Assembly (NCBI GenBank): GCA_030427125.1
Contig: JAUHXF010000001.1
Location: forward strand, 116,102 to 180,101
Length of the DNA stretch: 64,000 bases
Source: a bacterium
Lineage (GTDB): Bacteria > Patescibacteriota > Saccharimonadia > Saccharimonadales > SZUA-47
Reading direction: 5' to 3'
In this document: positions 19,824 through 33,552 of the stretch, in pieces
How the letters are laid out: every line of letters starts with the position of its first letter
Numbering within the stretch: position 1 is the first letter of the stretch
Made by a program: the position numbers and the translations under genes
The notes under the pieces: generated by a model
What the model was told of the DNA's origin: nothing
Databases searched by the model: none
Seen by the model: the letters and a program-made list of their open reading frames with translations, nothing else

Positions 19824-22800
19824 GTGAGGTTTTTTCGGCGCAGCCACTATGTGGTTGTTGCTTTGTTTTTACTTGTGCAGTTTTTGCCAGCTGATCAATT
19901 ACGTACACTTCTGCCGAAAGCACATGCTGCACCTGGTGATGGTCATATGTTGTTGTTCTGGGATGGCGGAAGTGCGCCGAGTGGTTGGAGTTGCGTGTCT
20001 TGCAGCCCGGGTGATGATTTCTATCAAAGATTCATTCGAGGTAATGATGCCTATGGAGCTACTGGTGGTGCCGCAACGCATACACACACGGCTGATGGTT
20101 CGGTTGACGAGACAACCACGCCAATGCCGGCTCGATCGCGCAATACACCACCGAACGACATTCACGAAAATGATCATACACATACATTTAGTCCGACGAT
20201 TGGAACTGCTAGCAATCTCCCTGAATACAGACAGCTGCAAGTTATCAGACACGACACTGCAGGTGATCCTGCAACGCTACCGGCTGGTGCAATAGCAATA
20301 TTTGACGCCGCAGTGCCAACTGGCTGGACGAGGTATTCAGCGCAAGATGGTCGATATATACGTGGTGAAAACACTGTTGGCACAACGGGCGGTTCGAATA
20401 CGCATACCCATGCCATAACGGGCACAACCGGCACAGCTCAGGGTGCTGATCGTGAACGAAACATAAACGGTACACAAACAAATGTTGCTGATGGGGCACA
20501 TACGCATGATGCATCGGGGACTTCCGCGAGCACGAGCAACGAGCCACCGTATATTGAGGTCATTCTCGGCGAATTGGACGCTGGTGCTGCCCCGCCAAAT
20601 GACATGTATGCAATGTGGGATGATGACCCGACAACAGCGTGGTCTGTGAAGAGTGAGAGTGGTGGTGTCTTCCACCAGGCGTTCTTTAAAGGTGCGAGTT
20701 CATATGGTGCTACCGGCGGGAGTGAGTCGCACAGTCATGCAGATGTGAGTTATGAATCAGGTTTACCAAGTGCGACGACTACCTCACGAACAAACGGTAC
20801 GGTCCGCGCCGCAGACGATCAGCATACGCACACGATAAACGTCACGAATTTCTCCGACGTGAATCATCTGCCGCCGTATATCGACGTTATTATTGCCAAG
20901 AAACAAGCTCCAAGTACACTGGAGCAATCATCATACCGATGGTTTAGAAACCAAGATAGTACAGATGCTGGAACGTCGCTCGCTGCTGAGAACACCGCAG
21001 CAACTGCACCACCTCAGGGCAAAGAATTTCGTTTGCGCTTCACAATTGGTGTCAGCGATGTCGACATGGGGTTGAACGGAGAGACCATGAAGCTGCAGGT
21101 TGCGCAACGCGTAGGTGCGTGTGATACGAGTTTCATCGGCGAAACATACAGTGATGTATCAGATTCATCTGGTGTGATTCGTTTTGCTAATAATCCTACG
21201 CCAGATGACGGCGATTCGTTAACGACAATTGCTAATGATCCAACTGGCGGAGGCGGGACGGTTGTCGCGCAAAGCTATGAAGAGTCTGGCGGTTTTTCCA
21301 ATACAGAAGCAGCAATAGATATTGGTGAAGATGGATTGTGGGACGTGGCGTTGGTCGATGATTCAGCACCGGCTTCAACAGCGTATTGTTTCCGTGTGGT
21401 GCGTAGCTCTGGATCAAGCCTAGATTACTACAGCGAAATACCAGAAATCACCACTGATGACGGGCTTGGTCATATGCTGCTGTTTTGGGATGGAGTTAGT
21501 GTGCCGAGCGGCTGGAGCTGTGTGTCGTGCAACCCAGGTGATGATTTCTATCAACGCTTTCCACGCGGCGAGACTACCTACGGAGCAACTGGAGGTAGTG
21601 CTGCGCACTCGCACACCGCAGACGGAACAGTTGGGGCGCAATCAGCCTTATCAGGAAGAAGTAGTGCAGGCACTGGATTCATTCGGGCACACGATCACTC
21701 CATTACGCCGATCATTGGCAATGCTAGTAACTTGCCGGTGTATAGACAGCTGCAGGTAATTCGCTTTGACAGCAGTGGAACTCCGACGACAATTCCAGCT
21801 GGTGCAATAGCAATTTTTGACGCAGCTGTACCAACAGGCTGGACGAGGTATTCAGTGCAAGATGGTAATTACATTCGCGGTGAGAGCACTGTAGGATCAA
21901 CTGGTGGTAGCAACACTCATACCCATACGATTACTGGTACAACAAGCATAGGTACAGGGACTATTCGAGGTCAAAACACAAATAATACCCAAGGCCCCGC
22001 ACCAACTGATACACACACCCACACAATCTCTGATAATTCAGACTCTGTGAGTAACGAACCGCCGTACATCGAAACGATCTTGGGCTCAATAAACGCCAAT
22101 GGCTCTGCGCCATCAAACATGCTAGCTATGTGGGATGGAGTTATGCCTGGTACCTGGACATCGCAATCAGACGCCGTAGGCGCATTTAACCAGAACTTCA
22201 TGAAGCCTGCAGCAACCTATGGCGCGACTGGCGGAAGTGCGACGCACTCACATGGCACAACTATCACGACATCATCCGGACCAAGTGCAACGGCGACAAC
22301 TAGAACGGGTGGGACGAACCTAAGTTCAGCAACGCACACGCACCAAGTTACAATTGATAATTTCTCTGACGTGAATCACCTACCACCTTACATCGATGTC
22401 ATTATCGGAAAGCTAACAGGCACCAATACTGGGCCAAATATACCGACCGCTTTGGATCAAATTCGCGTAAGTGACAGTTCATCGGTGGCGGTTGGTGGGT
22501 TCACCAATAATGGACAAGTTGAATTCACGGCGCAAGCTACAGACACTGACAATCCAGACGATTTGCAATTGTGCGTCGAGGTGCTTCCTATCGGCAGTCC
22601 ATTCACGAATGTTGAGTTGCAATGCGGCACAGCGGCGACCTACAGTGGCTCAGCGGTTAGCGTGTCAGTTACTATTTCGGGACTCAGTGATGGTACAAGC
22701 TACCATTGGCAAGCGCGGATTAAGGACGGAGCGGGGGCGACATCTGGCTGGGTGAGTTTTGGTGCAAACCCAGAGGCAAATGCTGATTTCATTGATGACT

Positions 22801-23627
22801 CTACTGATCCGAGCGGAACGGTATTTGACGGCTCGACTACGGGATTTGATGCTGATTTCAACGATGGCTCACTTGATACTTTGGAGGCGAATTGGAACAT
22901 CACAGACGGCGGTTCAGGAATCTCTGAGTACGAATATGCTATCGGCACGAGCGCAGGCGGAACGGATATTGTTGCCTACACGAGCAACGGAACAACCGAT
23001 TCAGTAACCGCAGGGTCACTTACGCTAGAGACTTCACTGCCGTACTATTTCTCCATTCGTACAACTGACAATGCCGATAATCAGATTATAATAACTAGCG
23101 ATAGTCAGCTTGTCGCACCGACGCTTACATTTAGCACGAGCACATCAGGCGGTGTACAGTTTGATAATCTGAACGCAAATAATAACTACACAGACACGAA
23201 AACTACCGTGTTAACAACGTCAACAAATGCACGAAATGGCTACGCGGTGCGTGCCTATACAACTGGGCTCTTAGAGAATAGCTACTTCGATGTTATTAGC
23301 AACTTTACTGGCGGCACCTACGCGGCCCCAGATACATGGCAGAGTGGTGATGTTGGCTACGGCTATACGTCTAATGACACACAGGTGCAGGGATCTAATA
23401 TCTTCAATGCAGTAACGTGTCCAGGTGGTGGATCAGGAAGCTCATGTTACGCGCCGTTTAGTCAGACAGCTCCGGGCGACATAGTTGCGGACAACGAGTC
23501 AACGATTACCGGGACGCCTATTACGAGTGAGCAATTCATCATTACGCATCGCGTCACAACAGATGCAAATCAAGAAGCCGGGCAGTACCAGACAATAGTC
23601 ATATTCCAGGCCACAGCAAAGTATTAG
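19824..23627 (+). CDS. giant secreted surface protein: 8 phage tail-collar-like repeats (2 blocks of 4), beta-sandwich/FN3-like domains, shared C-terminal module
   Basis: Repeats fit the tail-collar pattern (GW.C…G..Y.R…G.TGG…H.H … NEPPYIEVILG). Blocks at nt 19941–20905 and 21468–22420 are ~80% identical in DNA. C-terminal module is …PTLTFSTSTSGG…GQYQTIVIFQATAKY. Confidence 0.7.
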   Translation: MRFFRRSHYVVVALFLLVQFLPADQLRTLLPKAHAAPGDGHMLLFWDGGSAPSGWSCVSCSPGDDFYQRFIRGNDAYGATGGAATHTHTADGSVDETTTPMPARSRNTPPNDIHENDHTHTFSPTIGTASNLPEYRQLQVIRHDTAGDPATLPAGAIAIFDAAVPTGWTRYSAQDGRYIRGENTVGTTGGSNTHTHAITGTTGTAQGADRERNINGTQTNVADGAHTHDASGTSASTSNEPPYIEVILGELDAGAAPPNDMYAMWDDDPTTAWSVKSESGGVFHQAFFKGASSYGATGGSESHSHADVSYESGLPSATTTSRTNGTVRAADDQHTHTINVTNFSDVNHLPPYIDVIIAKKQAPSTLEQSSYRWFRNQDSTDAGTSLAAENTAATAPPQGKEFRLRFTIGVSDVDMGLNGETMKLQVAQRVGACDTSFIGETYSDVSDSSGVIRFANNPTPDDGDSLTTIANDPTGGGGTVVAQSYEESGGFSNTEAAIDIGEDGLWDVALVDDSAPASTAYCFRVVRSSGSSLDYYSEIPEITTDDGLGHMLLFWDGVSVPSGWSCVSCNPGDDFYQRFPRGETTYGATGGSAAHSHTADGTVGAQSALSGRSSAGTGFIRAHDHSITPIIGNASNLPVYRQLQVIRFDSSGTPTTIPAGAIAIFDAAVPTGWTRYSVQDGNYIRGESTVGSTGGSNTHTHTITGTTSIGTGTIRGQNTNNTQGPAPTDTHTHTISDNSDSVSNEPPYIETILGSINANGSAPSNMLAMWDGVMPGTWTSQSDAVGAFNQNFMKPAATYGATGGSATHSHGTTITTSSGPSATATTRTGGTNLSSATHTHQVTIDNFSDVNHLPPYIDVIIGKLTGTNTGPNIPTALDQIRVSDSSSVAVGGFTNNGQVEFTAQATDTDNPDDLQLCVEVLPIGSPFTNVELQCGTAATYSGSAVSVSVTISGLSDGTSYHWQARIKDGAGATSGWVSFGANPEANADFIDDSTDPSGTVFDGSTTGFDADFNDGSLDTLEANWNITDGGSGISEYEYAIGTSAGGTDIVAYTSNGTTDSVTAGSLTLETSLPYYFSIRTTDNADNQIIITSDSQLVAPTLTFSTSTSGGVQFDNLNANNNYTDTKTTVLTTSTNARNGYAVRAYTTGLLENSYFDVISNFTGGTYAAPDTWQSGDVGYGYTSNDTQVQGSNIFNAVTCPGGGSGSSCYAPFSQTAPGDIVADNESTITGTPITSEQFIITHRVTTDANQEAGQYQTIVIFQATAKY

Positions 23628-23824
23628 TAACACCTTGTAAACCGGTAAGTAGGCTACCGGATGGTTTATGGGCGAATCTATTTGTAAATTGCTTGTGCTT
23701 ACCTCTGTTTTTATATAGAATAAGCATAAGTATCTCGCAAAGGTGACTTGAAATTAAAAATAGGGCGCAACTATTTCAGTCTAATCTTGTACGTGGTCGT
23801 TTTTTAATCACGGTACTGCTGTTT

Positions 23825-26800
23825 TTGGTGACTGAGTTTACTTTTTTGCTTAGTTTTATCCAGCCGGCTGCAGCTGCCGGAGAAATATTCCGTACGACTA
23901 CCTATGAGATAGAGGCAGGAACTTTTACGAGTACAGTCTATTCACTGACACTCAATAACAACCTAGAGAACAACTACTTCACGATGATAAGCGGTCCATC
24001 GGAAGCTACCGGATCTCGAGCACCAAACGCTGATCGGGTACGGGTGACTGCAGATCCACATAGTAATTTTGCTAGCACTACAGCCTCAAACCAACTGGAG
24101 CTTACACGCAATAATGCGACCAATGACTGGATAGGAGCCCTTACAGTAGTTGAGTGTCTCAGTAACTGTGCAACAAAAGGGTTTGTTCTGTCAGAAATTC
24201 TTGAGACAGATTTAGCGGCAGGTACTGCCAATACACTACAAACAGTGAACGATACCTTAAGTGCAAGCCACACTGCTCAAACAGTACCGTTTGGCGGTAG
24301 GTTCGGTGGCGGCATGGAAAGTGCTGGTACGGATTCAAATGCATATGCGACAACTGTTGGTATTAAAATAACTAAAACTAGCACTAATCAAATTACGTAT
24401 GAACGTTATGGCGCTGAGAGCCGTGCTCCAGCCGCGGGGACTGTGACAACGTATATCACCGAATGGGGAAGTGAATGGACTGTGCAAGATGTGAGCGTGT
24501 CAGGCACGAATGCAGGTTCGGGTATTGATGCAACGAATGAATACGAGACAACAAGCATCACATCAGTGGTTCGCGATAATACGTTTGTCTGGGGTGGTGG
24601 CTACTCCTATGATGATGGGCTTGGTGATGGTGCACTTGGTCAAGTAATCACTCTTGGTGATGGTGTGTCTCAGAATGCAACTGAAACGCTGGTTGCAGTT
24701 GGTGCTGAAGGTGGGCAGGTATCACCAGGTAGAGATTTTCAAGTCTATGTTTTAGAGCATGAGGGTTTAGCAGTTGACTATCGTTTCCGAGCACGAGGTG
24801 ACCAAGGCAGTAGTACTGGCTATCAAGAGTTAACTCAAACAGTTGATGCACCAATTGGATTAGAAACAAGAGATAATACTGCCACTGATGTGAGGTATAC
24901 GGAAGGCTTTCGTGTGCCATTGTTCTACAACACCTCAGGAGGGACGGGTCAAGCATATTCACGAACCGGCGCCTGGGGCCTTAGGCACACTGATGTAACC
25001 GAGATCACTTATTGGCGTGCTTATGCGGGTCAGCCAATAACTGGGTGGTTTCAGTCAATTGATTTCGCAGACATAAAATTCACCAATGTGATTACTCGGC
25101 AAGAGGCTTTTCGCTGGCGAGACGACTCAACAGATCTCAATACCGACGGTGGCTGGTTGGCATCAGAAGATACCAATCTCGGTGATCAAGCAAAGAATAC
25201 TAATTTGCGCCTACGCATTAAGTCATCAAATTTTGGTACAACACCTGAAACAGCCGCTAAGACTTACGAATTGCAGTTTAGCGAGAAAACATCTGCGTCT
25301 TGCAATGCTCTTGGTTCTTGGGTTGGTATCTCTGATAGCACTACGGACGCCTTTGCCCTGTATGATTCACCAAACATCGATCCTGATGGAGAGGTCACGA
25401 CACTAGGTTTGCTGTCAAACGGAGATGGCTTCACGTATGTCAACGGAGAAGGTCGTGAACTTGCAGATACGACAAACTCTATTGGACCTATAGCAAATAG
25501 CGCCTACACAGAAATCGAGTATGCGTTACGTCCAACTGATGAAGCAATCACGGGCAAAACCTATTGTTTTAGACTGTTCGACACGACTGCTAGCATGCCA
25601 CTTGATGGATATACAGTATATCCAGAACTTACTATTGAATCTGTTGTTATCGATGCTGTTTCTGGTCTAGGCGAAGCTGGCACATTTAGCTCAGCCGTCG
25701 ATGGAGGCTGGACGACAATTAACTTCTTGGGCACATACATGAACCCTGTCGTTGTCGGGACAACAAATACGCAGAACGGAGAGGATGCGTTAGTGTTTGA
25801 AGCACGTAATGTAACCGGTACGAGTGCTGAAATGCGCGTCTGTGAGTCAGAAGGAGCTGCCGCAAACGGCTGTGATACACACGCATCAGAGACAGTTGGG
25901 TATATGGTGATTGATGCAGCCGTGGCCGCAACAACGGACGGTATTGAAGCTGGGACATTCTCTGCTGATGGCGATTTTGACACCGATGCAGTAACGACAT
26001 CTTATCCGACTGCTTTTTCTTCGGCGCCATACGTATTTGCCAATGTTAATACGGTGAATTCATCTGATGAGCCGGTCGAAGTGATGGTCAGAGGTGTTAC
26101 AGCATCAACTTTTACAGCGGGACTATGTCATCAGTTAGTTGGTCCAGATTTAAATAGCTGTGACACAACACATGGATCAGAGACAGTTGGATGGGTGGCA
26201 ATTGAACCAGGCAATGAACCTTTTTCGGAGCAGTTTGACACGGGTGATGTGTCAATTGGTAACAGCACTTGGACGCCTATTACATTCAGTCCTTCTTTTG
26301 CTGCGCCTCCAGTCGTGATCGTCGAGTCACAGACAGACAACGGAGGTGAGGACGCGGTGCTTGATGAAGCTCGATTGGTAACAACAACAGGTGCTGATAT
26401 CCGTTTCTGTGAAATGGAAAATTTTGATACTTGCGATAGCCATAATGCTGATGATATTGCGTGGTTTGCTATCGAGCCGGGTCAATTCTCAGAAGCACTC
26501 GCACTTGATCAGGACGGCTATCGGTTCTATGAAAATGCTGATGCACTGACTCCAGCCGTTTCGTTAGATGCAGAAAATACTGAGATAGCAAATGTTGATA
26601 GCGGCGATGTGCTACGGCTGCGCTTGGCAGTACAGTCGGGTTCGCAAGCTACCGTTGTCGATGCCTTTGAGCCTAAACTCCAGTATGGCGTCGGTACCAC
26701 GTGCTCTGCTGTAGGCACATGGAATGATGTTGGTGGAATTGGCTCAGGTACAATCTGGCGTGGATATAATAATGCAACACCGTCCGATGCAGCGACGCTT

Positions 26801-28885
26801 CCGAGCTCACTATTAGATGGAGGTGCTAACACGCTGCAAACTTATGAAGAGGCGAATGATGCCTTGTCAAATCCAAACCTCATCCCGGCTAATAGTCGTG
26901 GTGAATGGGATTGGGTTATACAAAATAATGGCGCTGCAAACTTTACCAGTTATTGTTTCCGTATGGTGACTGTTGCTGGCGATCCAATTAATTATGCACT
27001 ATACCCACGATTAACAACGTCAACTGGTGTGGTCAACTCGGCACCGAACGACCCTATGAATCTTACGCAAGAACGAACAACAGGTGTGAATATTGCAGTT
27101 GGTGAGCTGATCAATACCGGCTCAGTAGTATTCAAGGCAGACATAAGTGATCAGAATGCTAATGACATTATCGAGCTTTGTATAGAAGTCAAAGAAGTCG
27201 GCCAAGCTTTTACTGATACTGAAGACAGCTGCAGTTCAAGCTATGTATATAACGGCTCCATGGTCGCAGCGGAACACACTATATCGGGTTATGAACACAA
27301 TACAACATACCACTGGCAAGCTCGCGTTAAAGACGCTGCTGGTTTGTATTCTGCCTGGGCTAGTTTTGGGGGTAATAGCGAAAATGCGCCAGACTTCGAT
27401 GTTGATACGGTTGACCCGGAGGTAATCGTCTATGATGGTATGACTCTAGGAGCAGACATTGAATTTAACGACGGGTCACTTAATACGCTCAGTGCAGTAT
27501 GGGAACTGCAAGACGAAGACGTTCCGACTGATTTTAGCGGCTTGGCACTATGGCTCGATGGTGCAGATGTCAACGCAGATGGTTCAACAGTTTCAGATGG
27601 AGCTGCAGTAAGCACATGGTTTGATAAATCAGGTAACGGGAATGATATAGCCGGTACTGGCGCCTCGACTTATAGCTCAGCAAACCAGGCGCCCGGATAC
27701 AGTGGCACGGCACAGCCATTCGATGATACTTACGATCGATCTGGTGGAAACGTAAACTCACAAACGTCATTCAGCGTTGTGACTGGTGATAATACAGATA
27801 CAAATGCCGTATGGTATGAGACTACGACACCTCGTGTTGCGCCAGGAGAACAAGGGCTACTGGGTGGCGGCACAACTCTTACAAACAATAACTTGTATGG
27901 AAGCTTTATTAGCAGTCAGCAACTCGTAACTTTGGAATATCTATCGTCGGGTGCTTCAACAAGCTGGCTTGATCGTAGCCAAGAGTTCTCATTCTCCGAG
28001 ACGCAGATTTTCGCTGATTCACAACGGTTGGTTATTGGTGATGACACAACTGGTGGAAACCCGCTGCAGTCGAATGAATATGTTCATGAATTAATTGTCT
28101 ATAATCAAGATTTGACGGCTGCGGAACGAAAAGCTGTATGGAACTACCTCGAGTGTAAATGGGGTCTCAAAGATTGTACTGTTACATATGAATACTCAAT
28201 TGGTACCTCTCCAGACGGGACTGATCTTGTCGATTGGACTTCTACAGGGACAACAACAACATTTACCGCCAGCACTCTTAATCTAGAAACTTCAGATATA
28301 TATTACGTCAATATTAGAGCAACAGATCCTGCTGGTAATCAGAAAGTCTTTAACTCTGATGGTCAGCAGGTAGCACCATCGCTTACATTCTCCACGTCGA
28401 CATCCAGTGGTGTAGTTTTTGATAATCTCAATGCCGGTAATAGTTTTACCGACACAGAGTCGACCATACTCACAACGAGTACAAATGCTCGAAATGGCTA
28501 TGCAGTTCGCTCATATATAACCGGTTCATTAGAGAATGTACTTCTAGATACGATAGGCGAGTTTGACGGTGGTACTTATGCTGCTCCTGACACCTGGCAA
28601 GGTGGGGATGAAGGCTATGGTTATACGTCTAGCGATACACTAGTTGATGGTGTAAATCGATTTAATGCAGCAACATGTCCGGGTGGTGGTAGTGGTGGTC
28701 CGTGTTTCGCGCCATTTAGTTTATCTGCCCCTGGCGACATAGTGGCAGACAATCTTGGTCCAGTAGTCGGAACACCAATCTCCAATGAGCAATTTACTAT
28801 TACGCATCGAGTCACAACAAATGCCTCGCAGTCTTATGGCACGTATCAGACTTCAGTGATATTTCAAGCAACAGCTGTATACTAA
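23825..28885 (+). CDS. giant secreted lectin-domain protein (3 H-type-lectin-like domains, LamG-like domain, FN3-like domains, shared C-terminal module)
   Basis: The start is probably TTG or GTG. There are three ~100-aa repeats matching the H-type lectin pattern, around nt 25640–26480 (a representative one is ITFSPSFAAPPVVIV…TTTGADIRFC…IAWFAIEPG). A LamG_3-like segment (LALWLDGADVNADGS…DKSGNGND) lies around nt 27530–28180. The C-terminus …GTYQTSVIFQATAVY is homologous to that of 19824..23627. Confidence 0.7.
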   Translation: MVTEFTFLLSFIQPAAAAGEIFRTTTYEIEAGTFTSTVYSLTLNNNLENNYFTMISGPSEATGSRAPNADRVRVTADPHSNFASTTASNQLELTRNNATNDWIGALTVVECLSNCATKGFVLSEILETDLAAGTANTLQTVNDTLSASHTAQTVPFGGRFGGGMESAGTDSNAYATTVGIKITKTSTNQITYERYGAESRAPAAGTVTTYITEWGSEWTVQDVSVSGTNAGSGIDATNEYETTSITSVVRDNTFVWGGGYSYDDGLGDGALGQVITLGDGVSQNATETLVAVGAEGGQVSPGRDFQVYVLEHEGLAVDYRFRARGDQGSSTGYQELTQTVDAPIGLETRDNTATDVRYTEGFRVPLFYNTSGGTGQAYSRTGAWGLRHTDVTEITYWRAYAGQPITGWFQSIDFADIKFTNVITRQEAFRWRDDSTDLNTDGGWLASEDTNLGDQAKNTNLRLRIKSSNFGTTPETAAKTYELQFSEKTSASCNALGSWVGISDSTTDAFALYDSPNIDPDGEVTTLGLLSNGDGFTYVNGEGRELADTTNSIGPIANSAYTEIEYALRPTDEAITGKTYCFRLFDTTASMPLDGYTVYPELTIESVVIDAVSGLGEAGTFSSAVDGGWTTINFLGTYMNPVVVGTTNTQNGEDALVFEARNVTGTSAEMRVCESEGAAANGCDTHASETVGYMVIDAAVAATTDGIEAGTFSADGDFDTDAVTTSYPTAFSSAPYVFANVNTVNSSDEPVEVMVRGVTASTFTAGLCHQLVGPDLNSCDTTHGSETVGWVAIEPGNEPFSEQFDTGDVSIGNSTWTPITFSPSFAAPPVVIVESQTDNGGEDAVLDEARLVTTTGADIRFCEMENFDTCDSHNADDIAWFAIEPGQFSEALALDQDGYRFYENADALTPAVSLDAENTEIANVDSGDVLRLRLAVQSGSQATVVDAFEPKLQYGVGTTCSAVGTWNDVGGIGSGTIWRGYNNATPSDAATLPSSLLDGGANTLQTYEEANDALSNPNLIPANSRGEWDWVIQNNGAANFTSYCFRMVTVAGDPINYALYPRLTTSTGVVNSAPNDPMNLTQERTTGVNIAVGELINTGSVVFKADISDQNANDIIELCIEVKEVGQAFTDTEDSCSSSYVYNGSMVAAEHTISGYEHNTTYHWQARVKDAAGLYSAWASFGGNSENAPDFDVDTVDPEVIVYDGMTLGADIEFNDGSLNTLSAVWELQDEDVPTDFSGLALWLDGADVNADGSTVSDGAAVSTWFDKSGNGNDIAGTGASTYSSANQAPGYSGTAQPFDDTYDRSGGNVNSQTSFSVVTGDNTDTNAVWYETTTPRVAPGEQGLLGGGTTLTNNNLYGSFISSQQLVTLEYLSSGASTSWLDRSQEFSFSETQIFADSQRLVIGDDTTGGNPLQSNEYVHELIVYNQDLTAAERKAVWNYLECKWGLKDCTVTYEYSIGTSPDGTDLVDWTSTGTTTTFTASTLNLETSDIYYVNIRATDPAGNQKVFNSDGQQVAPSLTFSTSTSSGVVFDNLNAGNSFTDTESTILTTSTNARNGYAVRSYITGSLENVLLDTIGEFDGGTYAAPDTWQGGDEGYGYTSSDTLVDGVNRFNAATCPGGGSGGPCFAPFSLSAPGDIVADNLGPVVGTPISNEQFTITHRVTTNASQSYGTYQTSVIFQATAVY

Positions 28886-29800
28886 TTGGCAATGAAGTAC
28901 GCGTTATTTGGTTTTGGTGTATTGCTGAGTTTCGTATGTATCGCAAAAACTGGACTCGCACAGCAAGAGACACAACTAGTAGTGACGCCAGCTATTATTG
29001 ATGCGCCAGCAGTCGCCGGTGAATCTACAAAACGTACGATACAGATAAGTAATAACAATGATTATGCACTGCCAATTAGTGTTGAAGTGCAATCAGCTGT
29101 TATCGATGGTGAACCTCTTGAGGGAGTGAGTAACGACCGGTATGATGTGAGTAATTGGGTCTCCTTTGACAAAAAAACCTATATTTTTGAATCTGGAGAG
29201 ACGCGGCAAATACCATTTACTATTACGCCTCCGTTTACTGCTTCAGCTGGCGGACATTATGCACAGATTAGTATTCGAGGGTTAACCCTCGAATCTTCAT
29301 CAGGGCAGCAAGGACTTGTATTCCCTGAGATTGGTGTGCCGTTACTCGTAACGGTGCCGGGTGAAATCGTTGAGGATGCTCGTGTTCAGGATGTGTCGAT
29401 ATTTCCTCGATTCGTAACACCAAACAAACCAATTGATATCGAAATACCCGTTGAAAATATTGGAACGGTACATAATCTTGTTCGAGTGAAGATGGTCTTT
29501 GTGCAGGGTGATTCGGTTGTTGATGAACTAGAGTTACCGCCAGGAATTATTCTCCCTGGCACGAGGAAGCTCTTCCGTGGTGTGTGGCAGCCAGAACAAT
29601 ATGGGCAGTTTGATGCCTATGTAGAATTGGCGTATGGGTCTAATCGCACTACAACACGATCGCAAGCAGAACAGGTGCTTGTCATGCCTCCTGTCAGCTC
29701 ACTTATCTTACTTGGAATTTTTGTGTGGCTAGGTACTTATCTATGGCCGCGTCGGCAGAATATTGTAGGTGCTATTAAAACAATATTTACAGCTCAATAA
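28886..29800 (+). CDS. signal-peptide protein with C-terminal TM anchor (DUF916/CscA-like architecture)
   Basis: Signal peptide, a ~250-aa beta-rich ectodomain, and a C-terminal TM (LILLGIFVWLGTYLW) plus basic tail. Paralogous to 31014..32003. Confidence 0.5.
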   Translation: MAMKYALFGFGVLLSFVCIAKTGLAQQETQLVVTPAIIDAPAVAGESTKRTIQISNNNDYALPISVEVQSAVIDGEPLEGVSNDRYDVSNWVSFDKKTYIFESGETRQIPFTITPPFTASAGGHYAQISIRGLTLESSSGQQGLVFPEIGVPLLVTVPGEIVEDARVQDVSIFPRFVTPNKPIDIEIPVENIGTVHNLVRVKMVFVQGDSVVDELELPPGIILPGTRKLFRGVWQPEQYGQFDAYVELAYGSNRTTTRSQAEQVLVMPPVSSLILLGIFVWLGTYLWPRRQNIVGAIKTIFTAQ

Positions 29801-29863
29801 AGCTTGCGCTTTACTCTTGATTTCGGTACAATTTCAAGGAATTCTACAAAGAGAGGGTATTAC

Positions 29864-30922
29864 ATGACACAAACAAAGATTTTTCGACTATCGACGCTTT
29901 TGGCGATAGTTGGTTTATTAATGGCACTTTTGCTGCCAGCAGTTCCTGCGAGCGCTTTAACAAATAGTTCATTGCTATTGTCAGATCCGCGTACTGGCGA
30001 GACAAGTGACTACACACTAACGACTAGCGGTCTAACAACTGGAACTACGATCAACTGTATACAGCTGGATATCGGTACCGCATCTGATGGTACAGGCGAT
30101 GTTGGGCTTGATCTTTCAAGTGTCGATGTAACGACTGAAACAATTACATCTGGTGGTGCATGGGCAGATGCGAGCGTTGACGGTACAACTGATCAATTGC
30201 GATACACATCAGCTGGTGGAGCAACACCAAATGCCTCAGGTTCAATTACTTGGGATGATGTCGTCAATGGATCCACTGAAGGTGCAACATACTACGGCGT
30301 ATTTGAGACATTTAGCAATACCGACTGTTCAACCGGTGGTCCTGTCGACTCGGTCACTGTTGCATTCACCTACAAAGACGGAGAATTGGTGCAACTTACA
30401 ATTGATCCAACACTAACATTTACTTGTTCAGATGTCGCATCTGGACTGCCGGTAAACGGTGTGAACACAACAGTTGCTTCGACTGCGAGCGGTATTAATC
30501 ATGGCAATTCAGTAACATTTGGTGCCAAAGGTATATCAGCACATGATTTGAACGTGACCACAAATGCACCTGGCGGCTACACTGTGTACATCCGCCACAC
30601 AGGACAGCTTACAAATGGTTCTGACAACATTGCTAATCACACCGGTACAAATGCAGCGCCTACAGCTTTCCCTGCTGCAGGTACTGAAGCCTGGGGCTAT
30701 ACAACTGAGGATAATACTCTAGGAGGTGGTGGAGCGACACGGTTTACTGCTGCAAATGGATACGCCGGCTTTACGACTACTAACGAGCCAGTCATGGACA
30801 ACACAGGTGCAGCTCCAAGTGGTGACACGGTTCGTGTTGGTCACCAGGTTGGTGTAGCGAATACTACACCGTCAGGTACATACCAGACGACCATTGTGTA
30901 CACAGTTGCTTCTGTGTACTAA
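29864..30922 (+). CDS. secreted protein carrying the shared C-terminal module (small CscB/WxL-like analogue?)
   Basis: Start at the internal ATG preceded by GAGAGGG. Signal peptide. C-terminal …PTLTFTCSD…GTYQTTIVYTVASVY is homologous to the C-termini of both giant proteins. Confidence 0.55.
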   Translation: MTQTKIFRLSTLLAIVGLLMALLLPAVPASALTNSSLLLSDPRTGETSDYTLTTSGLTTGTTINCIQLDIGTASDGTGDVGLDLSSVDVTTETITSGGAWADASVDGTTDQLRYTSAGGATPNASGSITWDDVVNGSTEGATYYGVFETFSNTDCSTGGPVDSVTVAFTYKDGELVQLTIDPTLTFTCSDVASGLPVNGVNTTVASTASGINHGNSVTFGAKGISAHDLNVTTNAPGGYTVYIRHTGQLTNGSDNIANHTGTNAAPTAFPAAGTEAWGYTTEDNTLGGGGATRFTAANGYAGFTTTNEPVMDNTGAAPSGDTVRVGHQVGVANTTPSGTYQTTIVYTVASVY

Positions 30923-31013: not shown

Positions 31014-32003
31014 ATGGGGTTCACACACAGACACATTGCCAGGTGGGCAAGCGTCGCTTTAATTGCACTAGTTAGTATTTTTGCTGTTTTCACTGTCTCG
31101 TCCAGTGCACAAGAACCAGCTGAGACTATTTCACTTGGTATTTCACCGCAAATTCTTGATGTGACGGCTAATCCTGGAGAGACACTTGAGAATACATTCC
31201 GATTAACGAATGCTTCTCCAGCGTCAGTCGATATCCAAGCAACACCAAAGAACTTTACACCTCGTGGGGAGGAAGGCGCCGTTGATTTAACCGTCGATGA
31301 CACTAGTTTCTCCTTAGCAGACTGGGTTAGTGTGTCGCCTGAGCGAACAGTAATTGAGCCTGGTCAAACAACTGATTTTGCTGTTACGATTGTGGTGCCA
31401 GATAACGCTGAGCCTGGTAGCCATTTTGGCTCAGTGGTTTTTCAGACAATTCCACCAGAAGATGCTACCGCAGACGCCTTAGTGAGCCAGGAAATAGCTC
31501 CGGTAATACTTGTAAAAATAGCTGGAAACACGACCGAGACAGCCGAGATAGAAGAACTCACCACTGATCAGAATAGCTACGGTAGTAACCCAACAATTCA
31601 GTTAATTTCTCGCATAAAGAACACCGGAAATGTTCACTTCAAACCGGTGGGTAAGATTACTATCAAGAATATGTGGGGAAACGAGATTGCTGAATTAGAG
31701 CTGGATCGAAGAAATGTGCTGCCAGATTCTATTCGGCAAATAACAACTGATTGGCAGCCAGAAGGGTTTCAATTAGGCAGATACACCGCAACTTTAACTC
31801 TTGTGTATGGAGAGAATGATGAAATACGTGTCGAAGAAACGAGTTTCACGATTTTCCCTTGGGAGATAATATTACCAATTGTAGCTGGAGCTGTAATAGT
31901 GAGTTTTGTAGCCATACGTTATCGAAAGCGCTTTGCACTAGCTGCAAAAGTACTCAGCGGTAAACAAGATACTAATTCAAACTCAAAAGGCACAAAAGAG
32001 TAA
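31014..32003 (+). CDS. signal-peptide protein with C-terminal TM anchor (paralog of 28886..29800)
   Basis: Same architecture: signal peptide, beta-rich ectodomain, and a C-terminal TM (ILPIVAGAVIVSFVAI) plus RYRKR tail. Confidence 0.5.
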   Translation: MGFTHRHIARWASVALIALVSIFAVFTVSSSAQEPAETISLGISPQILDVTANPGETLENTFRLTNASPASVDIQATPKNFTPRGEEGAVDLTVDDTSFSLADWVSVSPERTVIEPGQTTDFAVTIVVPDNAEPGSHFGSVVFQTIPPEDATADALVSQEIAPVILVKIAGNTTETAEIEELTTDQNSYGSNPTIQLISRIKNTGNVHFKPVGKITIKNMWGNEIAELELDRRNVLPDSIRQITTDWQPEGFQLGRYTATLTLVYGENDEIRVEETSFTIFPWEIILPIVAGAVIVSFVAIRYRKRFALAAKVLSGKQDTNSNSKGTKE

Positions 32004-32008: not shown

Positions 32009-33394
32009 GTGCATAGAATCACACAACTAATGGTGGTAGGGTTGTTTGTAGGTCTATTTTCACTAGCTATAGCAAATAACGGCGCTGCCATCTCGCGAAC
32101 GGAAGACATAGAGTTAACAATCCCTGATACCGTGTTGGAAATTAGTGGCTATGCAGCTCCAGGCGCGCTCGTAACAATTCAGGAAGGTAGTTCTACGCTA
32201 GGCACAGTCCTGGCAAACGCGGAAGGAGCTTATTCAACAGTACTTACTTCGCAAGACGCAGGTTTGCGCTCTATTAAGACATATTTTACTGATGCAGAGG
32301 GTATACGCTCTCAGACAAGCACAAGGAATATTAGTATTCAACCACAGCGAGTTACCTCGTTTGAAACATATTTAAGCCCAACAATTATCCGGCGAACACC
32401 TACGCAAGTTCAGAGCGGCAGTATCGTACAGATTGTTGGTTATACAGTTGCTGATGCACGCGTGTCATTGTCATTCGGCGTCGTTGGAGATGAACAGCAG
32501 GTCATTGCGAACTCAGCAGGATATTATGAATTTTTATTAGACACTAAAATTTTAGATGATGGAAAGTACACTGTTTCAACATCAAGTAAAAAAACAGGAT
32601 TGACAGATAGCAGTGAGCAGTCTAAATCTGTTTCTTTTCGAGTTGTTAGCAAAGAAAAGTCAGAGGAAGGTGCCCCTGACATAATCGTCCGTCCTAATCA
32701 ATTACCTCCCCCTATTCCACAGTCACCAGATGACGGATCTGTCATAGTCGGCGACAGTGTATTAATAACTGGTGAGTCAGTGCCTTATGCTCAAATTGTA
32801 ATTTACGAAAATGGCAAGGTTATTGGCTCAGTACTTTCGAATGGACAGGGTAAATGGGAATTCAACTATACCGCTACATCAAGCCCCATAGTATTAACAT
32901 TTGAAGCGTGTCGGGAGGGGGTCTGTAGTGTTCTATCGCAGTCTTTATCTCTGTCGTTTCCAGCATTGGTAAGCACTCAGAATCCATGTAGCAAGCAGGT
33001 TTTTGAGCTGGAGTCTTATCGATTTTGGGGTGTACTGCCAAACGAGGAGGTGATGCTAGATGTATTGTTAACAAATGGTGACGGGGTGTTATTTGTAGAT
33101 TGGGGTGACGGTACTACTGAAGAACGGTTTGATCATGATGCGGATAGACCAACGTCCTACGAACATGTTTATAGCACAGGCCAGCATAATGGCTCTATCA
33201 GATTTGAACAAGGGGAGTGTAATATAGCACGATACTTTAGTGTAGATGCTCGTGGCCATAGTGGCATTAACACAAATTTTTACCTTATGGCATTGCTGAT
33301 TCTGGCCATCTTACCGTTTAGTTATTGGTCATATATCGAAGGTAAGGTTCTAATGCAAAAAGAAGTAAAAAAAGCGACAAAGAGCAACATATAG
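32009..33394 (+). CDS. Ig-like (Big) repeat surface protein with C-terminal TM anchor
   Basis: Signal peptide, repeated ~90-aa beta-sandwich-like units and a C-terminal hydrophobic helix. Confidence 0.45.
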   Translation: MHRITQLMVVGLFVGLFSLAIANNGAAISRTEDIELTIPDTVLEISGYAAPGALVTIQEGSSTLGTVLANAEGAYSTVLTSQDAGLRSIKTYFTDAEGIRSQTSTRNISIQPQRVTSFETYLSPTIIRRTPTQVQSGSIVQIVGYTVADARVSLSFGVVGDEQQVIANSAGYYEFLLDTKILDDGKYTVSTSSKKTGLTDSSEQSKSVSFRVVSKEKSEEGAPDIIVRPNQLPPPIPQSPDDGSVIVGDSVLITGESVPYAQIVIYENGKVIGSVLSNGQGKWEFNYTATSSPIVLTFEACREGVCSVLSQSLSLSFPALVSTQNPCSKQVFELESYRFWGVLPNEEVMLDVLLTNGDGVLFVDWGDGTTEERFDHDADRPTSYEHVYSTGQHNGSIRFEQGECNIARYFSVDARGHSGINTNFYLMALLILAILPFSYWSYIEGKVLMQKEVKKATKSNI

Positions 33395-33475: not shown

Positions 33476-33552
33476 CGGGGTGTAGCTCAGTTGGCTAGAG
33501 TGCGCGGTTTGGGACCGTGAGGTCGTAGGTTCAAGTCCTATCACCCCGACCA
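33476..33552 (+). tRNA. tRNA-Pro(TGG)
   Basis: Cloverleaf folded by hand: a 7-bp acceptor stem CGGGGTG/CACCCCG, anticodon loop TTTGGGA, T-loop TTCAAGT, and an encoded CCA. Confidence 0.85.

What the first reader, a model, noticed from the sequence alone, without database searches (positions are those of the whole stretch)
23825..28885. 1686-aa protein with three tandem H-type-lectin-like domains plus LamG-like jelly-roll
There are three ~100-aa repeats around nt 25640–26480. A representative one reads …TSYPTAFSSAPYVFANVNTV…VMVRGVTASTFTAG…VGWVAIEP. They fit the H-type lectin fold pattern: a hexamer-interface strand, then R..v.t.GF, then a terminal W.AI. A LamG_3-type segment follows (LALWLDGADVNADGS…SGNGND). 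A repeated YRWR-ND…FRLRF…YCFR beta-sandwich domain is shared with the preceding giant. This is strong evidence for a carbohydrate-binding adhesin. The gene appears to start at TTG or GTG with a weak signal peptide.
Basis: partly seen in the sequence, partly recalled or inferred. Interest (0 to 1): 0.6.

Follow-up and report, generated by a model that had tools for sequence, protein, structure and literature searches.

The report
Giant lectin-bearing Pam-pilus adhesin subunit
This gene from an uncultured Saccharibacteria (CPR) genome encodes a giant secreted protein with three snail-lectin-like domains, and it ends in the subunit domain of the recently described CPR "Pam" pilus, so it is probably the sticky subunit that lets that pilus recognise a host cell.

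Summary
ORF 23825-28885 (+) encodes 1686 aa. It has three about 95-aa repeats (aa 606-887) that are H-type-lectin-like by HMM (27 bits on the segment; 22 of 24 orthologs hit) and by fold (SLL-2, Helix agglutinins). AlphaFold packs the three repeats into one compact module (pTM 0.89). A LamG-like insert is supported only by profile-profile links, not by a direct Pfam hit. The "YRWR" sandwich is shared with the preceding giant protein.

The last about 175 aa form a chaperone-usher-pilin-like Ig domain. NCBIfam's CPR_Pam_pilin_C model hits 52 of 62 members of this domain family; the window copy itself is sub-threshold. The same domain ends the upstream giant and a 372-aa pilin-like protein downstream. 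Two membrane-anchored PapD/WxLIP-like chaperone candidates and a PamR-like protein complete a cassette that is conserved in eight related loci.

Best reading: an adhesin subunit, at the tip or on the side, of a donor-strand-exchange Pam pilus. Sugar binding is inferred, not shown; the canonical GalNAc-binding residues do not appear conserved. This is a new variant of known kinds. Interest is moderate to high.

The parts
23753..23881 (+). Probable true start (ATT 23753, 6 nt after AAGGTGA) and Sec signal peptide, KNRAQLFQSNLVRGRFLITVLLFLVTEFTFLLSFIQPAAAA|GE. The listed TTG start is at 23825.
   Evidence: There is no ATG/GTG/TTG between the stop at 23744 and 23825. The in-frame upstream translation is colinear with the signal peptides of orthologs P0004, P0012 and P0016. 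L002 has the same ATT AAA arrangement behind a Shine-Dalgarno-like site. A hydrophobic segment is detected at aa 15-37 of the ATT-started protein. This start is inferred.
23882..25096 (+). N-terminal conserved beta-rich domain of about 400 aa with unknown fold and function. It would be the distal end of the protein.
   Evidence: It is 36-62% identical to segments of giant proteins from other phyla that also carry Kelch, C25 peptidase or DUF11 domains. It has no Pfam match and no PDB sequence match.
25097..25639 (+). First 'F/YRWR...RLR...LQY...YCFR' beta-sandwich-type domain.
   Evidence: Alignment A8, with invariant R, R-x-R, LQ, C and YC-R columns. Cross-hits to copy 2 in orthologs. No Pfam or PDB match.
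25640..25924 (+). H-type-lectin-like repeat 1 (aa 606-700).
25925..26215 (+). H-type-lectin-like repeat 2 (aa 701-797).
   Evidence: H_lectin 17.0 bits when scanned alone.
26216..26485 (+). H-type-lectin-like repeat 3 (aa 798-887).
   Evidence: H_lectin 15.3 bits when scanned alone.
26486..27040 (+). Second 'YRFY...RLR...LQY...YCFR' beta-sandwich domain, shared with protein B.
   Evidence: 27% identity to B 314-548, E 2e-17. Alignment A8.
27041..27394 (+). FN3-like domain (...YHWQARVKDAAGLYSAWASFG).
   Evidence: About 30% identical to B 868-987. Orthologs P0005 and P0007-P0012 carry a PA14 domain inserted here.
27395..27529 (+). N-terminal half of a second FN3-like domain that is split by the LamG-like insert.
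   Evidence: This half is contiguous with the other half in protein B and in orthologs that lack the insert.
27530..28159 (+). LamG / concanavalin-like insert (aa 1236-1445).
   Evidence: No direct Pfam or PDB sequence hit. hhalign gives 96.7% to P0056 and 97.8% to P0235. Five of the 10 top representative hits pass the Laminin_G_3 threshold. The fold was not modelled.
28160..28351 (+). C-terminal half of the split FN3-like domain (YEYSIGTSPDGTDLVDW...YYVNIRATDPAGN).
   Evidence: FN3 matches in this stretch of profile A5.
28352..28885 (+). Conserved linker strand (SDGQQVAPSLTFSTS) plus the Pam-pilin C-terminal Ig-like domain, ending ...YQTSVIFQATAVY*.
   Evidence: AF2 pLDDT 94. The best PDB folds are chaperone-usher pilins. 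NF058581 CPR_Pam_pilin_C hits 52 of 62 family members; the window copy scores 15.9 bits, E 0.011, below the cut-off of 55. It is 72% identical to the tail of B and 34-36% to the tail of S.
19824..23627 (+). Protein B, a paralogous giant (1267 aa) with the same FN3 + linker + Pam C-terminal domain tail. It has one YRWR sandwich and no lectin or LamG module.
   Evidence: It is absent at this position in L001-L008.
28886..29800 (+). Chaperone candidate 1 (PamC/D-like): signal peptide, two Ig-like domains, C-terminal transmembrane helix.
   Evidence: PapD_N E 0.0056. WxLIP_PGBD hits 10 of 14 orthologs/paralogs, best E 6.3e-7. Transmembrane segment at aa 263-284. The gene abuts the stop codon of A.
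29804..30922 (+). Protein S, a 372-aa pilin-like protein: N-terminal domain, linker (IDPTLTFTCSD) and Pam C-terminal domain, ending TYQTTIVYTVASVY*.
   Evidence: Its size is close to the 38.7 kDa reported for PamB.
31014..32003 (+). Chaperone candidate 2, a paralog of candidate 1, with a C-terminal transmembrane helix.
   Evidence: WxLIP_PGBD E 0.0014. Alignment A6 and family scan. Transmembrane segment at aa 277-303.
32009..33394 (+). PamR-like candidate: signal peptide, Big_6/Ig-like repeats, hydrophobic C-terminus.
   Evidence: Big_6 E 5.9e-12. NF058578 CPR_pilus_PamR reaches only 22 bits against a cut-off of 300. It is conserved as the last cassette gene.

Best explanation
The gene encodes a secreted, about 1,700-aa adhesin subunit of a Pam-type pilus in a Saccharimonadia (CPR) bacterium. 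Pam pili are CPR-specific and assemble by donor-strand exchange.

Shown here:
- The last about 175 aa are an Ig-like domain with a chaperone-usher-pilin-like fold. This domain family is recognised by NCBIfam's Pam pilin C-terminal domain model.
- The same domain, preceded by the same conserved strand motif (V-x-P-[ST]-L-[ST]-F), ends the upstream giant B and a normal-sized pilin-like protein S.
- Two membrane-anchored two-Ig-domain proteins with PapD/WxLIP similarity and a PamR-like protein complete a five-gene cassette that stays together across related genomes.
- The N-terminal about 1,500 aa are a string of beta domains: an unknown 400-aa head, two 'YRWR' sandwiches, three H-type-lectin-like domains that AlphaFold packs into one compact three-module body, FN3-like domains, and a LamG-like insert.

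Inferred:
- After Sec export, the anchored chaperones cap the C-terminal domain of the protein.
- The linker strand of the pilin S then replaces the chaperone strand. This places the giant protein at the distal end of the fibre, or on its side.
- The lectin module, LamG insert and head domain bind surface glycans of the host bacterium.
- The three-in-one lectin body imitates the homotrimer of snail and coral H-type lectins, whose sugar sites lie between protomers. Its best-conserved feature is a Cys-x(7-10)-Cys-Asp-x-His loop in every repeat, at the position of the HPA ligand loop.
For: Lectin module:
- H_lectin scores 27.1 bits on the segment against a cut-off of 24, and hits 22 of 24 orthologs, best E 5.7e-10.
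- The AF2 model has pLDDT 88.2 and pTM 0.89.
- Single-domain matches: SLL-2 3wmp (prob 1.00, TM 0.69) and HAA 4q56 (prob 1.00, TM 0.66), plus HPA, discoidin II and pyocin/phage fibre knobs. Whole-module matches go to the pseudo-threefold PCSK9 C-terminal domain.
- A viral protein shows the same three-domain body, TMq 0.75, E 8e-14.

C-terminal domain:
- AF2 pLDDT 94.1.
- Top PDB folds are CfaB, CsuA/B, CsuE, CooA, SafA, FimA and the PapG pilin domain.
- NF058581 CPR_Pam_pilin_C hits 52 of 62 family members (best 1.1e-10). In the window copy the hit covers the full length of the model. The PamT model hits 5 members.

Operon:
- The window holds three proteins with this domain and two chaperone-like proteins, and no others.
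- PapD_N, WxLIP_PGBD and Big_6 hits; a weak PamR hit; signal peptide and transmembrane topology.
- The cassette giant-chaperone-pilin-chaperone-PamR-like is conserved in full in six related loci, L002-L004 and L006-L008, and in L011, where the flanking genes differ. L005 lacks the pilin and the second chaperone gene.

Taxon: Candidatus Saccharibacteria / Saccharimonadia.

Literature: Pam pili have an N-terminal domain, linker donor strand and truncated Ig C-terminal domain, PapD-like chaperones with transmembrane helices, and a PamR anchor. No host-binding component has been identified (bioRxiv 10.64898/2026.03.03.709456). Host glycans are suspected Saccharibacteria targets, but the lectins are unknown (PMC11623550).
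Against: - The window's own C-terminal domain scores only 15.9 bits against a cut-off of 55. At E<=0.01 no NCBIfam model hit A, B, S or chaperone candidate 1, and candidate 2 hit only an unrelated sub-threshold model (choice_anch_T); the only Pam model hit in the operon was the weak PamR match. The relationship to the Mycosynbacter Pam proteins is therefore distant.
- All Foldseek PDB E-values are weak (at best 5e-3).
- The cryo-EM work saw only PamA and PamB in filaments, and proposed a small PamT as the tip. No PamT-like gene is present in this window.
- The AF2 monomer folds the linker strand back onto its own domain, so an open groove was not demonstrated.
- Sugar binding is untested. The HPA residues Asn61 and Arg63 (recalled from memory) do not align with conserved residues, in a low-confidence alignment (hhalign probability 7%).
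- The compact pseudo-trimer rests on one AF2 model whose coordinates I could not inspect.
Confidence: 0.6

Rival explanations
1. A cell-surface complex of the WxL type, not a filament. The C-terminal domain docks permanently, by strand insertion, onto the membrane-anchored two-Ig-domain proteins, which act as WxLIP-like holders rather than transient chaperones. The giant adhesin then stands on the cell envelope, as proposed for 'large WxL' proteins of Firmicutes.
For: [quoted passage not shown] WxLIP_PGBD is the top Pfam family for the chaperone-like proteins (10 of 14, best E 6.3e-7). Only one ordinary pilin gene is present, and no PamT.
Against: No member of the C-terminal domain family hits Pfam WxL, and the dual W-x-L motif is absent. 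NCBIfam's Pam pilin model does recognise the family. The fold is closest to polymerising chaperone-usher pilins. The two readings may not be exclusive if WxL systems also work by strand exchange.
Confidence: 0.25
2. The triple module is not a lectin. It is a pseudo-threefold beta-prism that binds a lipid or a protein on the host envelope, as the APCbeta domain of apicomplexan perforin-like proteins binds membranes and the PCSK9 C-terminal domain binds proteins. The rest of the model (pilus or surface adhesin) is unchanged.
For: The best whole-module PDB matches are the PCSK9 C-terminal domain and the APCbeta domains. Canonical HPA sugar ligands are not conserved. The known Pam pilus host has a mycolic-acid outer layer.
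Against: The sequence HMM that hits is H_lectin, in 22 of 24 orthologs. Single domains match true lectins at 20-22% identity and TM 0.66-0.69. Related modules sit in phage tail fibres annotated as H-type lectin. The orthologs swap in other carbohydrate-binding-type modules (PA14, LamG).
Confidence: 0.25
3. A generic secreted multidomain surface protein whose C-terminal Ig-like domain has no assembly role. On this reading the neighbouring genes are unrelated envelope proteins.
For: All family hits for the window copies are below curated thresholds.
Against: The identical tail is kept at 72% identity in paralog B and at 55-77% in orthologs, which is better than most of the protein. It recurs in the small protein S. 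The five-gene cassette is kept intact where the flanks differ.
Confidence: 0.07
4. A prophage tail-fibre or receptor-binding protein left in the chromosome.
For: H-lectin-like knobs and the same triple module occur in viral proteins. The Pam preprint mentions a co-localised 'tail fibre-like protein'.
Against: There are no phage genes around it. The neighbours are RNase Y, a sortase, tRNAs, recA and PilB. The protein has a Sec signal peptide. It has a conserved chromosomal position in at least eight genomes.
Confidence: 0.02

Closest known systems
Pam pilus pilins (PamA/PamB/PamE/PamT) of Candidatus Mycosynbacter amalyticus (Troman et al., bioRxiv 10.64898/2026.03.03.709456)
   Same: A CPR/Saccharimonadia host and a Sec signal peptide. 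A C-terminal truncated-Ig-type domain recognised at family level by NF058581, preceded by a conserved strand. An operon with two PapD-like proteins that carry C-terminal transmembrane helices and a PamR-like protein. Paired cysteines.
   Different: The described pilins are 39-55 kDa with one nine-strand N-terminal domain. This protein has about 1,500 aa of extra adhesin-type domains. No lectin or adhesin component was described for Pam pili. Gene order differs, and no PamT is present here. Sequence similarity to the curated models is sub-threshold for the window copies.
Two-domain tip adhesins of chaperone-usher pili (FimH, PapG, CfaE, CsuE)
   Same: The logic of an N-terminal receptor-binding (lectin) part fused to a C-terminal pilin domain that accepts a donor strand. 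The fold of the C-terminal domain is closest to CfaB, CsuE and the PapG pilin domain.
   Different: The organism has no outer membrane and no usher gene was seen in the cassette. The chaperone candidates are membrane-anchored. The receptor-binding part is about ten times larger and multi-modular. No sequence similarity was detected.
H-type lectins (Helix pomatia/aspersa agglutinins, coral SLL-2, discoidin C-terminal domain; Pfam PF09458)
   Same: Six-strand beta-sandwich fold, an HMM match, and the R..VT..GF / W.AIE sequence pattern. A three-fold arrangement of the domains.
   Different: Three diverged domains sit in one chain instead of forming a homotrimer. Each domain has an added disulfide-type loop C-x(7-10)-C-D-x-H. 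The GalNAc ligands of HPA are not evidently conserved. The context is a bacterial giant protein.
WxL clusters of Firmicutes (large WxL, small WxL, WxLIP = DUF916-DUF3324-TM; PMC9772566, PMC10599100)
   Same: The same parts list and order of ideas. The chaperone-like proteins hit WxLIP_PGBD. There is a predicted strand insertion from the Ig protein into the C-terminal domain.
   Different: No W-x-L motifs and no Pfam WxL hit. The phylum is different. Peptidoglycan binding is neither known nor tested here.
Phage tail-fibre / pyocin fibre knobs with H-lectin-like folds (R2 pyocin PA0620, LKA1 gp49, BFVD UPI001E6AE1CA_1)
   Same: The domain fold. In one viral protein the whole three-domain body is the same (TMq 0.75).
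   Different: Most of these are homotrimeric fibres. This protein is a secreted chromosomal cell-surface protein.

Membership tests
H-type lectin domain (Pfam PF09458) | Sequence matches the family HMM above the gathering score (24 bits). | tested here: met
   Borderline. The whole protein scores 23.7 bits and the 285-aa segment scores 27.1 bits, E 4.5e-6. Single repeats score 17.0 and 15.3 bits, and repeat 1 has no hit. 22 of 24 orthologous segments hit, best E 5.7e-10.
H-type lectin domain (Pfam PF09458) | Six-stranded antiparallel beta-sandwich fold like HPA. | tested here: met
   AF2 pLDDT 88. Foldseek matches: SLL-2 3wmp (prob 1.00, TMt 0.69, rmsd 3.4), HAA 4q56 (prob 1.00, TMt 0.66, rmsd 2.7), HPA 2ce6 and 2cgy (prob 0.91-0.97). 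The E-values themselves are weak (0.05-0.3).
H-type lectin domain (Pfam PF09458) | Trimeric assembly with sugar sites between protomers (from my knowledge of the HPA structure). | tested here: inconclusive
   pTM is 0.89 for the three-domain model. Full-length alignments go to the pseudo-threefold PCSK9 C-terminal domain and to a viral three-domain protein at TMq 0.75. Model coordinates could not be superposed on an HPA trimer.
H-type lectin domain (Pfam PF09458) | Conserved GalNAc-binding residues (HPA Asn61, Arg63, Trp83, His84, Tyr89; residue list from memory). | tested here: not met
   In the hhalign of the 72-repeat profile against HPA (HPA sequence verified), Asn61 and Arg63 fall on non-conserved positions or gaps. 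Only His84 aligns with the invariant His of the C..CD.H loop. The alignment probability is only 7%, so this is a weak negative.
H-type lectin domain (Pfam PF09458) | Binds carbohydrate. | not testable with these tools
   Needs a glycan array or ITC with the expressed protein.
Laminin_G_3 / concanavalin-like (Pfam PF13385) | Direct match to the family HMM. | tested here: not met
   No hit at E<=10 for the window segment or for any of 15 orthologous segments.
Laminin_G_3 / concanavalin-like (Pfam PF13385) | Profile-level homology to proteins that are bona fide members. | tested here: met
   The profile of the window plus orthologs only (A2) matches P0235 at hhalign 97.8%, E 7e-13, over 187 columns. 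P0235 scores 86 bits for Laminin_G_3. A2 matches P0056 at 96.7%. Five of the 10 top library hits pass the gathering score. Caveat: P0235 has several copies, and the aligned copy need not be the one Pfam scored best.
Laminin_G_3 / concanavalin-like (Pfam PF13385) | Jelly-roll fold. | not tested
Pam pilus pilin (NCBIfam NF058581 CPR_Pam_pilin_C; Troman et al. 2026) | C-terminal domain matches the curated Pam pilin C-terminal model above its cut-off (55 bits). | tested here: inconclusive
   The window copy scores 15.9 bits, E 0.011, but is aligned over the whole model (12-148 of 148). 52 of 62 members of the same domain family hit at E<=1, best 1.1e-10. The whole-protein scan at E<=0.01 found nothing.
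Pam pilus pilin (NCBIfam NF058581 CPR_Pam_pilin_C; Troman et al. 2026) | Truncated Ig-like, chaperone-usher-pilin-like fold of the C-terminal domain. | tested here: met
   pLDDT 94. Top Foldseek hits are CfaB (prob 1.00, TMt about 0.5), CsuA/B, CsuE, CooA, SafA, FimA and the PapG pilin domain. 'Truncated' could not be judged, because the model includes the linker strand.
Pam pilus pilin (NCBIfam NF058581 CPR_Pam_pilin_C; Troman et al. 2026) | A conserved linker (donor) strand directly N-terminal to the C-terminal domain. | tested here: met
   In the motif SDGQ.VAP[ST]L[ST]FS, D3 and P9 are invariant and S2, G4, V7 and F13 are at least 90% conserved among 23 sequences, including A, B and S. Actual donation of the strand is inferred.
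Pam pilus pilin (NCBIfam NF058581 CPR_Pam_pilin_C; Troman et al. 2026) | [quoted passage not shown] | tested here: met
   There are two paralogs with signal peptide, two Ig-like domains and a transmembrane helix. They hit PapD_N (E 0.0056) and WxLIP_PGBD (10 of 14). The last gene gives only a weak PamR hit (22 bits). The cassette is conserved. All HMM hits are sub-threshold; it is the architecture that matches.
Pam pilus pilin (NCBIfam NF058581 CPR_Pam_pilin_C; Troman et al. 2026) | Polymerises by donor-strand exchange into a filament. | not testable with these tools
   Needs complex prediction or experiment.
WxL cluster (Hassan & Williamson 2022/2023) | C-terminal domain with two W-x-L motifs, or a Pfam WxL hit. 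| tested here: not met
   No WxL hit in 23 or in 62 members at E<=10 and E<=1. The motifs are read as G-Y-x-V and [FY]-x-[AV] instead (sequence).
WxL cluster (Hassan & Williamson 2022/2023) | At least one WxLIP (DUF916-DUF3324-TM) next to one small and one large protein that share the C-terminal domain. | tested here: inconclusive
   The architecture is the same. WxLIP_PGBD hits 10 of 14 (best 6.3e-7), but WxLIP_HBD hits only 1 of 14 (E 0.035).

The most novel reading that the evidence does not exclude
Pam pili of CPR bacteria carry giant, modular, lectin-bearing subunits that decide which host is recognised. These subunits are built on the pilin domain itself, and their sugar-binding cassettes (triple H-lectin, PA14, LamG) are swapped between lineages.

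Beyond that, the WxL surface clusters of Firmicutes and the Pam operons may be two branches of one ancient monoderm system. In it, membrane-anchored PapD-like proteins would hand C-terminal Ig domains over by strand exchange. This would mean WxL 'complexes' are cryptic donor-strand assemblies.
Probability: 0.3. Interest if true: 0.8.

Novelty: new variant of a known kind. Interest (0 to 1): 0.62.

Why it matters
Two recent lines of work leave the same gap. The Pam pilus paper says it is unknown how the filaments recognise the host envelope. The Saccharibacteria type IV pilus work says the lectins and glycan targets of host recognition still have to be identified.

A giant protein that joins a Pam pilin domain to a lectin-type module gives a concrete, clonable candidate. 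The region aa 600-890 folds confidently and could go straight onto a glycan array. The module swaps between orthologs (PA14 inserted, LamG present or absent, a doubled lectin body) suggest a way in which host range could diversify.

The single-chain version of the H-type lectin trimer is also a compact scaffold with three non-equivalent sites. The similarity of the chaperone candidates to WxLIP links a CPR pilus to a widespread but mechanistically unexplained Firmicute surface system.

Tried and rejected
Searches that found nothing useful:
- Profile searches of PDB sequences: the lectin module (A1), the LamG insert (A2 and A3), the N-terminal domain (A7) and the YRWR sandwich (A8). The C-terminal profile A5 gave only FN3 matches from the flanking stretch.
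- Direct Pfam scans gave no family for the N-terminal 600 aa, the YRWR sandwiches, the LamG insert or the C-terminal domain.
- NCBIfam on whole proteins gave nothing for A, B, S or chaperone candidate 1 at E<=0.01.
- I found no open paper giving the HPA ligand residues, so those residues are quoted from memory.

Readings rejected:
- Sortase anchoring of this protein. It has no LPXTG-like signal at its C-terminus. The APxTG signals belong to two other proteins at 13741-16818. The cassette also occurs without the sortase in L011.
- A prophage origin. The chromosomal context is conserved and the protein has a Sec signal.
- PA14 replacing the lectins in the 67%-coverage orthologs. PA14 is in fact an insertion in the FN3 domain, and the triple lectin is kept in those orthologs.

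BLASTP of the protein against itself shows no off-diagonal hits. The repeats need profiles to be seen.


Full report
**Observation.** The window holds an ORF at 23825-28885 (+) of 1686 aa that starts with TTG. An HMM built from the three putative repeats places them at aa 606-700, 701-797 and 798-887, which is nt 25640-26485. It finds the same three units in 23 homologous proteins. The window's repeats are 22-34% identical to each other. Profiles of each repeat position (24 orthologs each) match one another at hhalign probability 97.3-98.5%, E 2e-11 to 3e-15. A repeat-1 HMM scores the real repeats 3 and 2 at 47.8 and 25.0 bits, against at most 13.7 bits in 1000 shuffled copies. Plain BLASTP of the protein against itself does not show the repeats. 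The 'YRWR...RLR...YCFR' domain is present twice in this protein (about aa 425-612 and 888-1072). It occurs once in the preceding giant, protein B (19824-23627), at E 2e-17.

**Lectin module.**
- Pfam H_lectin is the only family that hits the whole protein, at 23.7 bits against a cut-off of 24.
- On the 285-aa segment it reaches 27.1 bits, and 22 of 24 orthologous segments hit, best E 5.7e-10.
- Scanned alone, repeats 2 and 3 score 17.0 and 15.3 bits, and repeat 1 has no hit.
- With a 24-sequence alignment, AlphaFold2 gives pLDDT 88.2 and pTM 0.89.
- Foldseek against the PDB finds single-domain matches to the coral lectin SLL-2 (3wmp; prob 1.00, TM 0.69, 22% identity) and Helix aspersa agglutinin (4q56; prob 1.00, TM 0.66). 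It also matches HPA, discoidin II and the knobs of pyocin and phage fibres.
- The full-length matches (277-280 columns, prob 0.99) are to the C-terminal domain of PCSK9 and to the APCbeta domains of perforin-like proteins. From my own knowledge, both are three-module, pseudo-threefold bodies.
- None of these PDB matches has E below 0.001.
- In the viral structure library one protein (UPI001E6AE1CA_1) matches the entire module at TMq 0.75, rmsd 3.3 A, E 8e-14. Several phage proteins named 'H-type lectin domain' or 'tail fiber' follow.

I conclude that the three domains have the H-type lectin fold and very probably pack into one compact body. That body would be a single-chain counterpart of the homotrimer that H-type lectins form (my own knowledge of HPA). 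I could not inspect coordinates, so the pseudo-trimer remains an inference.

Each repeat position is better conserved between orthologs (about 44-86% identity) than the repeats are to each other, so the triplication is old. The most conserved feature of every repeat is a loop C-x(7-10)-C-D-x-H. In a low-confidence hhalign to HPA (HPA sequence verified against 2cgy), this loop falls on the HPA loop that carries Trp83, His84 and Tyr89. HPA Asn61 and Arg63 have no conserved counterpart. Sugar binding is therefore plausible but unproven, and the specificity cannot be read off.

**Other domains.**
- *LamG-like insert.* The segment aa 1236-1445 begins and ends like many LamG_3 domains, but it gives no Pfam hit in the window protein or in 15 orthologs and no PDB sequence hit. 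A profile of the window protein and its orthologs alone matches P0056 (hhalign 96.7%) and P0235 (97.8%, E 7e-13). P0235 scores 86 bits for Laminin_G_3. A slightly wider profile finds 44,532 proteins, and 5 of the 10 I scanned pass the Laminin_G_3 threshold. The segment is thus a diverged LamG-like domain by transitive homology. Its fold was not modelled.
- *Position of the insert.* It is inserted in a loop of an FN3-like domain. Protein B and orthologs P0013 and P0016-P0022 have that domain uninterrupted.
- *PA14.* Orthologs P0005 and P0007-P0012 carry a PA14 domain inserted in the preceding FN3-like domain.
- *N-terminal domain.* The first about 400 aa are a conserved domain of unknown fold. 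It also occurs in giant proteins of Acidobacteriota, Deltaproteobacteria and others.

**C-terminus and operon.** The last about 175 aa (ending ...YQTSVIFQATAVY) are 72% identical to the end of protein B. They are 34-36% identical to the end of a 372-aa protein S encoded at 29804-30922. These are the only three ORFs in the window with this domain.

AlphaFold2 with 62 sequences gives pLDDT 94.1. The closest PDB folds are pilins of chaperone-usher pili: CfaB (prob 1.00), CsuA/B, CsuE, CooA, SafA, FimA and the pilin domain of PapG. Pfam has no family for the domain; 4 of 62 members touch DUF4402.

NCBIfam has a model NF058581, 'CPR_Pam_pilin_C, Pam pilus system pilin subunit'. It hits 52 of 62 family members (best E 1.1e-10). 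It hits the window copy over the full model length, but at only 15.9 bits (E 0.011, cut-off 55). NF058579 (PamT) hits five members.

The genes around fit the same system:
- 28886-29800 and 31014-32003 are paralogs with a signal peptide, two Ig-like domains and a C-terminal transmembrane helix. They hit PapD_N (E 0.0056) and WxLIP_PGBD (10 of 14 orthologs/paralogs, best E 6.3e-7).
- 32009-33394 has Big_6 repeats, a hydrophobic C-terminus and a weak hit to NF058578 (PamR).

**The Pam system in the literature.** The preprint that defined the Pam system (bioRxiv 10.64898/2026.03.03.709456) describes pilins made of an N-terminal domain, a donated linker strand and a truncated Ig-like C-terminal domain. 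It describes PapD/FimC-like chaperones (PamC, PamD) that keep a transmembrane helix, and a membrane-anchored PamR. It states that how the pili recognise the host is unknown. It mentions neither lectins nor adhesins, only a co-localised 'tail fibre-like protein'.

**Taxon and conservation.** Named relatives are Candidatus Saccharibacteria, Saccharimonadia and Patescibacteria. One lectin-module relative lies in a Gracilibacteria MAG. The order giant - chaperone-like - pilin-like - chaperone-like - PamR-like is kept in L002-L004 and L006-L008. It is also kept in L011, where the upstream flank is different. L005 lacks the pilin-like and second chaperone-like genes. Protein B is an extra copy specific to this window. 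The sortase and its two APxTG-type substrates upstream (13741-18006) are not part of the cassette.

**Start codon.** There is no ATG/GTG/TTG between the stop at 23744 and the TTG at 23825. The in-frame translation of that stretch (…NLVRGRFLITVLLF-LVTEF…) is colinear with the full signal peptides of the orthologs. An ATT at 23753 lies 6 nt after AAGGTGA, and L002 has the same ATT AAA arrangement. The 'weak signal peptide' is thus most likely a truncated one.

**Mechanism (inferred).** The protein is exported by Sec. Its C-terminal Ig domain is held by the anchored chaperone candidates. The linker strand of S, or of B or A, replaces the chaperone strand, as in the published Pam model, where fibres grow from the base with the tip subunit first. 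The protein has an acceptor domain and 1,500 aa lying N-terminal to it, so the lectin body, the LamG insert and the unknown head would sit at the distal end of the fibre, or project from its side. In logic it corresponds to FimH, PapG or CsuE: a lectin part on a pilin domain. The swapping of PA14 and LamG modules, and a contig with two lectin bodies in tandem (L009), suggest that this part of the protein diversifies.

**Rivals.**
- The same parts list defines the WxL clusters of Firmicutes: large and small proteins sharing a C-terminal domain, plus WxLIP. The protein could therefore be held on the cell envelope rather than on a fibre. Against this, no WxL motif or HMM hit exists, while the Pam model does hit.
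- The lectin body could bind a lipid or a protein instead of a sugar.
- A generic surface protein and a prophage fibre are both unlikely, given the conserved cassette and the chromosomal context.

**Limits.**
- All hits of curated models to the window's own copies of the Pam-type parts are below threshold.
- All PDB fold E-values are modest.
- The LamG fold, the N-terminal domain and the YRWR sandwiches were not modelled.
- No binding or assembly was tested.

Noticed in passing
window 28886-29800 and 31014-32003; related loci L002-L008: The membrane-anchored Pam-type chaperone candidates hit Pfam WxLIP_PGBD (DUF916) in 10 of 14 orthologs/paralogs (best E 6.3e-7). The whole cassette mirrors the small-WxL / large-WxL / WxLIP clusters of Firmicutes. 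The Pam preprint never mentions WxL. The two systems may be related.
   Followed up: partly
window 13741-15564, 15589-16818, 16891-18006: Two secreted proteins end in APDTG / APYTG followed by a hydrophobic stretch and a basic tail, which are sortase sorting signals. They lie next to a class-F-like sortase (NF033748, 105.6 bits, below its cut-off of 166). This is a separate surface-protein module. The giant-protein cassette occurs without it in L011.
   Followed up: partly
window 19824-23627: Protein B (1267 aa) is a second giant with the same FN3 + linker + Pam C-terminal domain tail, but no lectin or LamG modules. It is missing at this position in all related loci examined, so it looks like a lineage-specific extra adhesin.
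   Followed up: partly
window 23744-23830; L002 8105-8174: The probable non-canonical ATT start codon lies 6 nt behind AAGGTGA, and the same ATT AAA arrangement is present in an ortholog. Several database orthologs appear to be called with truncated N-termini.
   Followed up: partly
L009 4216-5031 and 5086-5898: A related contig encodes two complete triple-lectin modules back to back, six H-lectin-like domains in all.
   Followed up: no
orthologs P0005, P0007-P0012 (PA14 insert); P0013, P0016-P0022 (no LamG): Orthologs differ by whole modules. PA14 is inserted in the FN3-like domain near aa 1157, and the LamG-like insert is present or absent. This looks like cassette-type variation of putative glycan-binding parts.
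   Followed up: partly
window 23882-25096; P0031-P0049: The about 400-aa N-terminal domain also occurs (35-50% identity) inside giant proteins of other phyla that carry Kelch repeats, C25 peptidase or DUF11 repeats. It has no Pfam family and no PDB sequence relative.
   Followed up: partly
BFVD entry UPI001E6AE1CA_1: A 784-aa viral protein has the same three-domain H-lectin-like body (TMq 0.75, rmsd 3.3 A, E 8e-14). The single-chain pseudo-trimer is therefore not confined to CPR bacteria.
   Followed up: no
window 8000-9763 (-), 9956-10984 (+): A type IV pilus ATPase PilB (E 8e-119 to PDB PilB) and a recA-like gene lie about 10-14 kb upstream. The genome thus encodes both type IV pilus and Pam-type surface systems close together.
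   Followed up: partly
window 33476-33552; 35384-35641; 52577-52738: There are six tRNA genes. tRNA-Pro lies directly after the last cassette gene, and a His-Arg-Gly cluster lies on the minus strand.
   Followed up: no
window 23642-23660: A terminator-like hairpin (CCGGTAAGTAGGCTACCGG) lies just after the stop codon of protein B and before the start of the lectin protein. The T-run is poor, so its function is uncertain.
   Followed up: no
L010 10001-10777: A lectin-module relative (48% identity) is encoded in a Candidatus Gracilibacteria MAG, outside Saccharimonadia.
   Followed up: no
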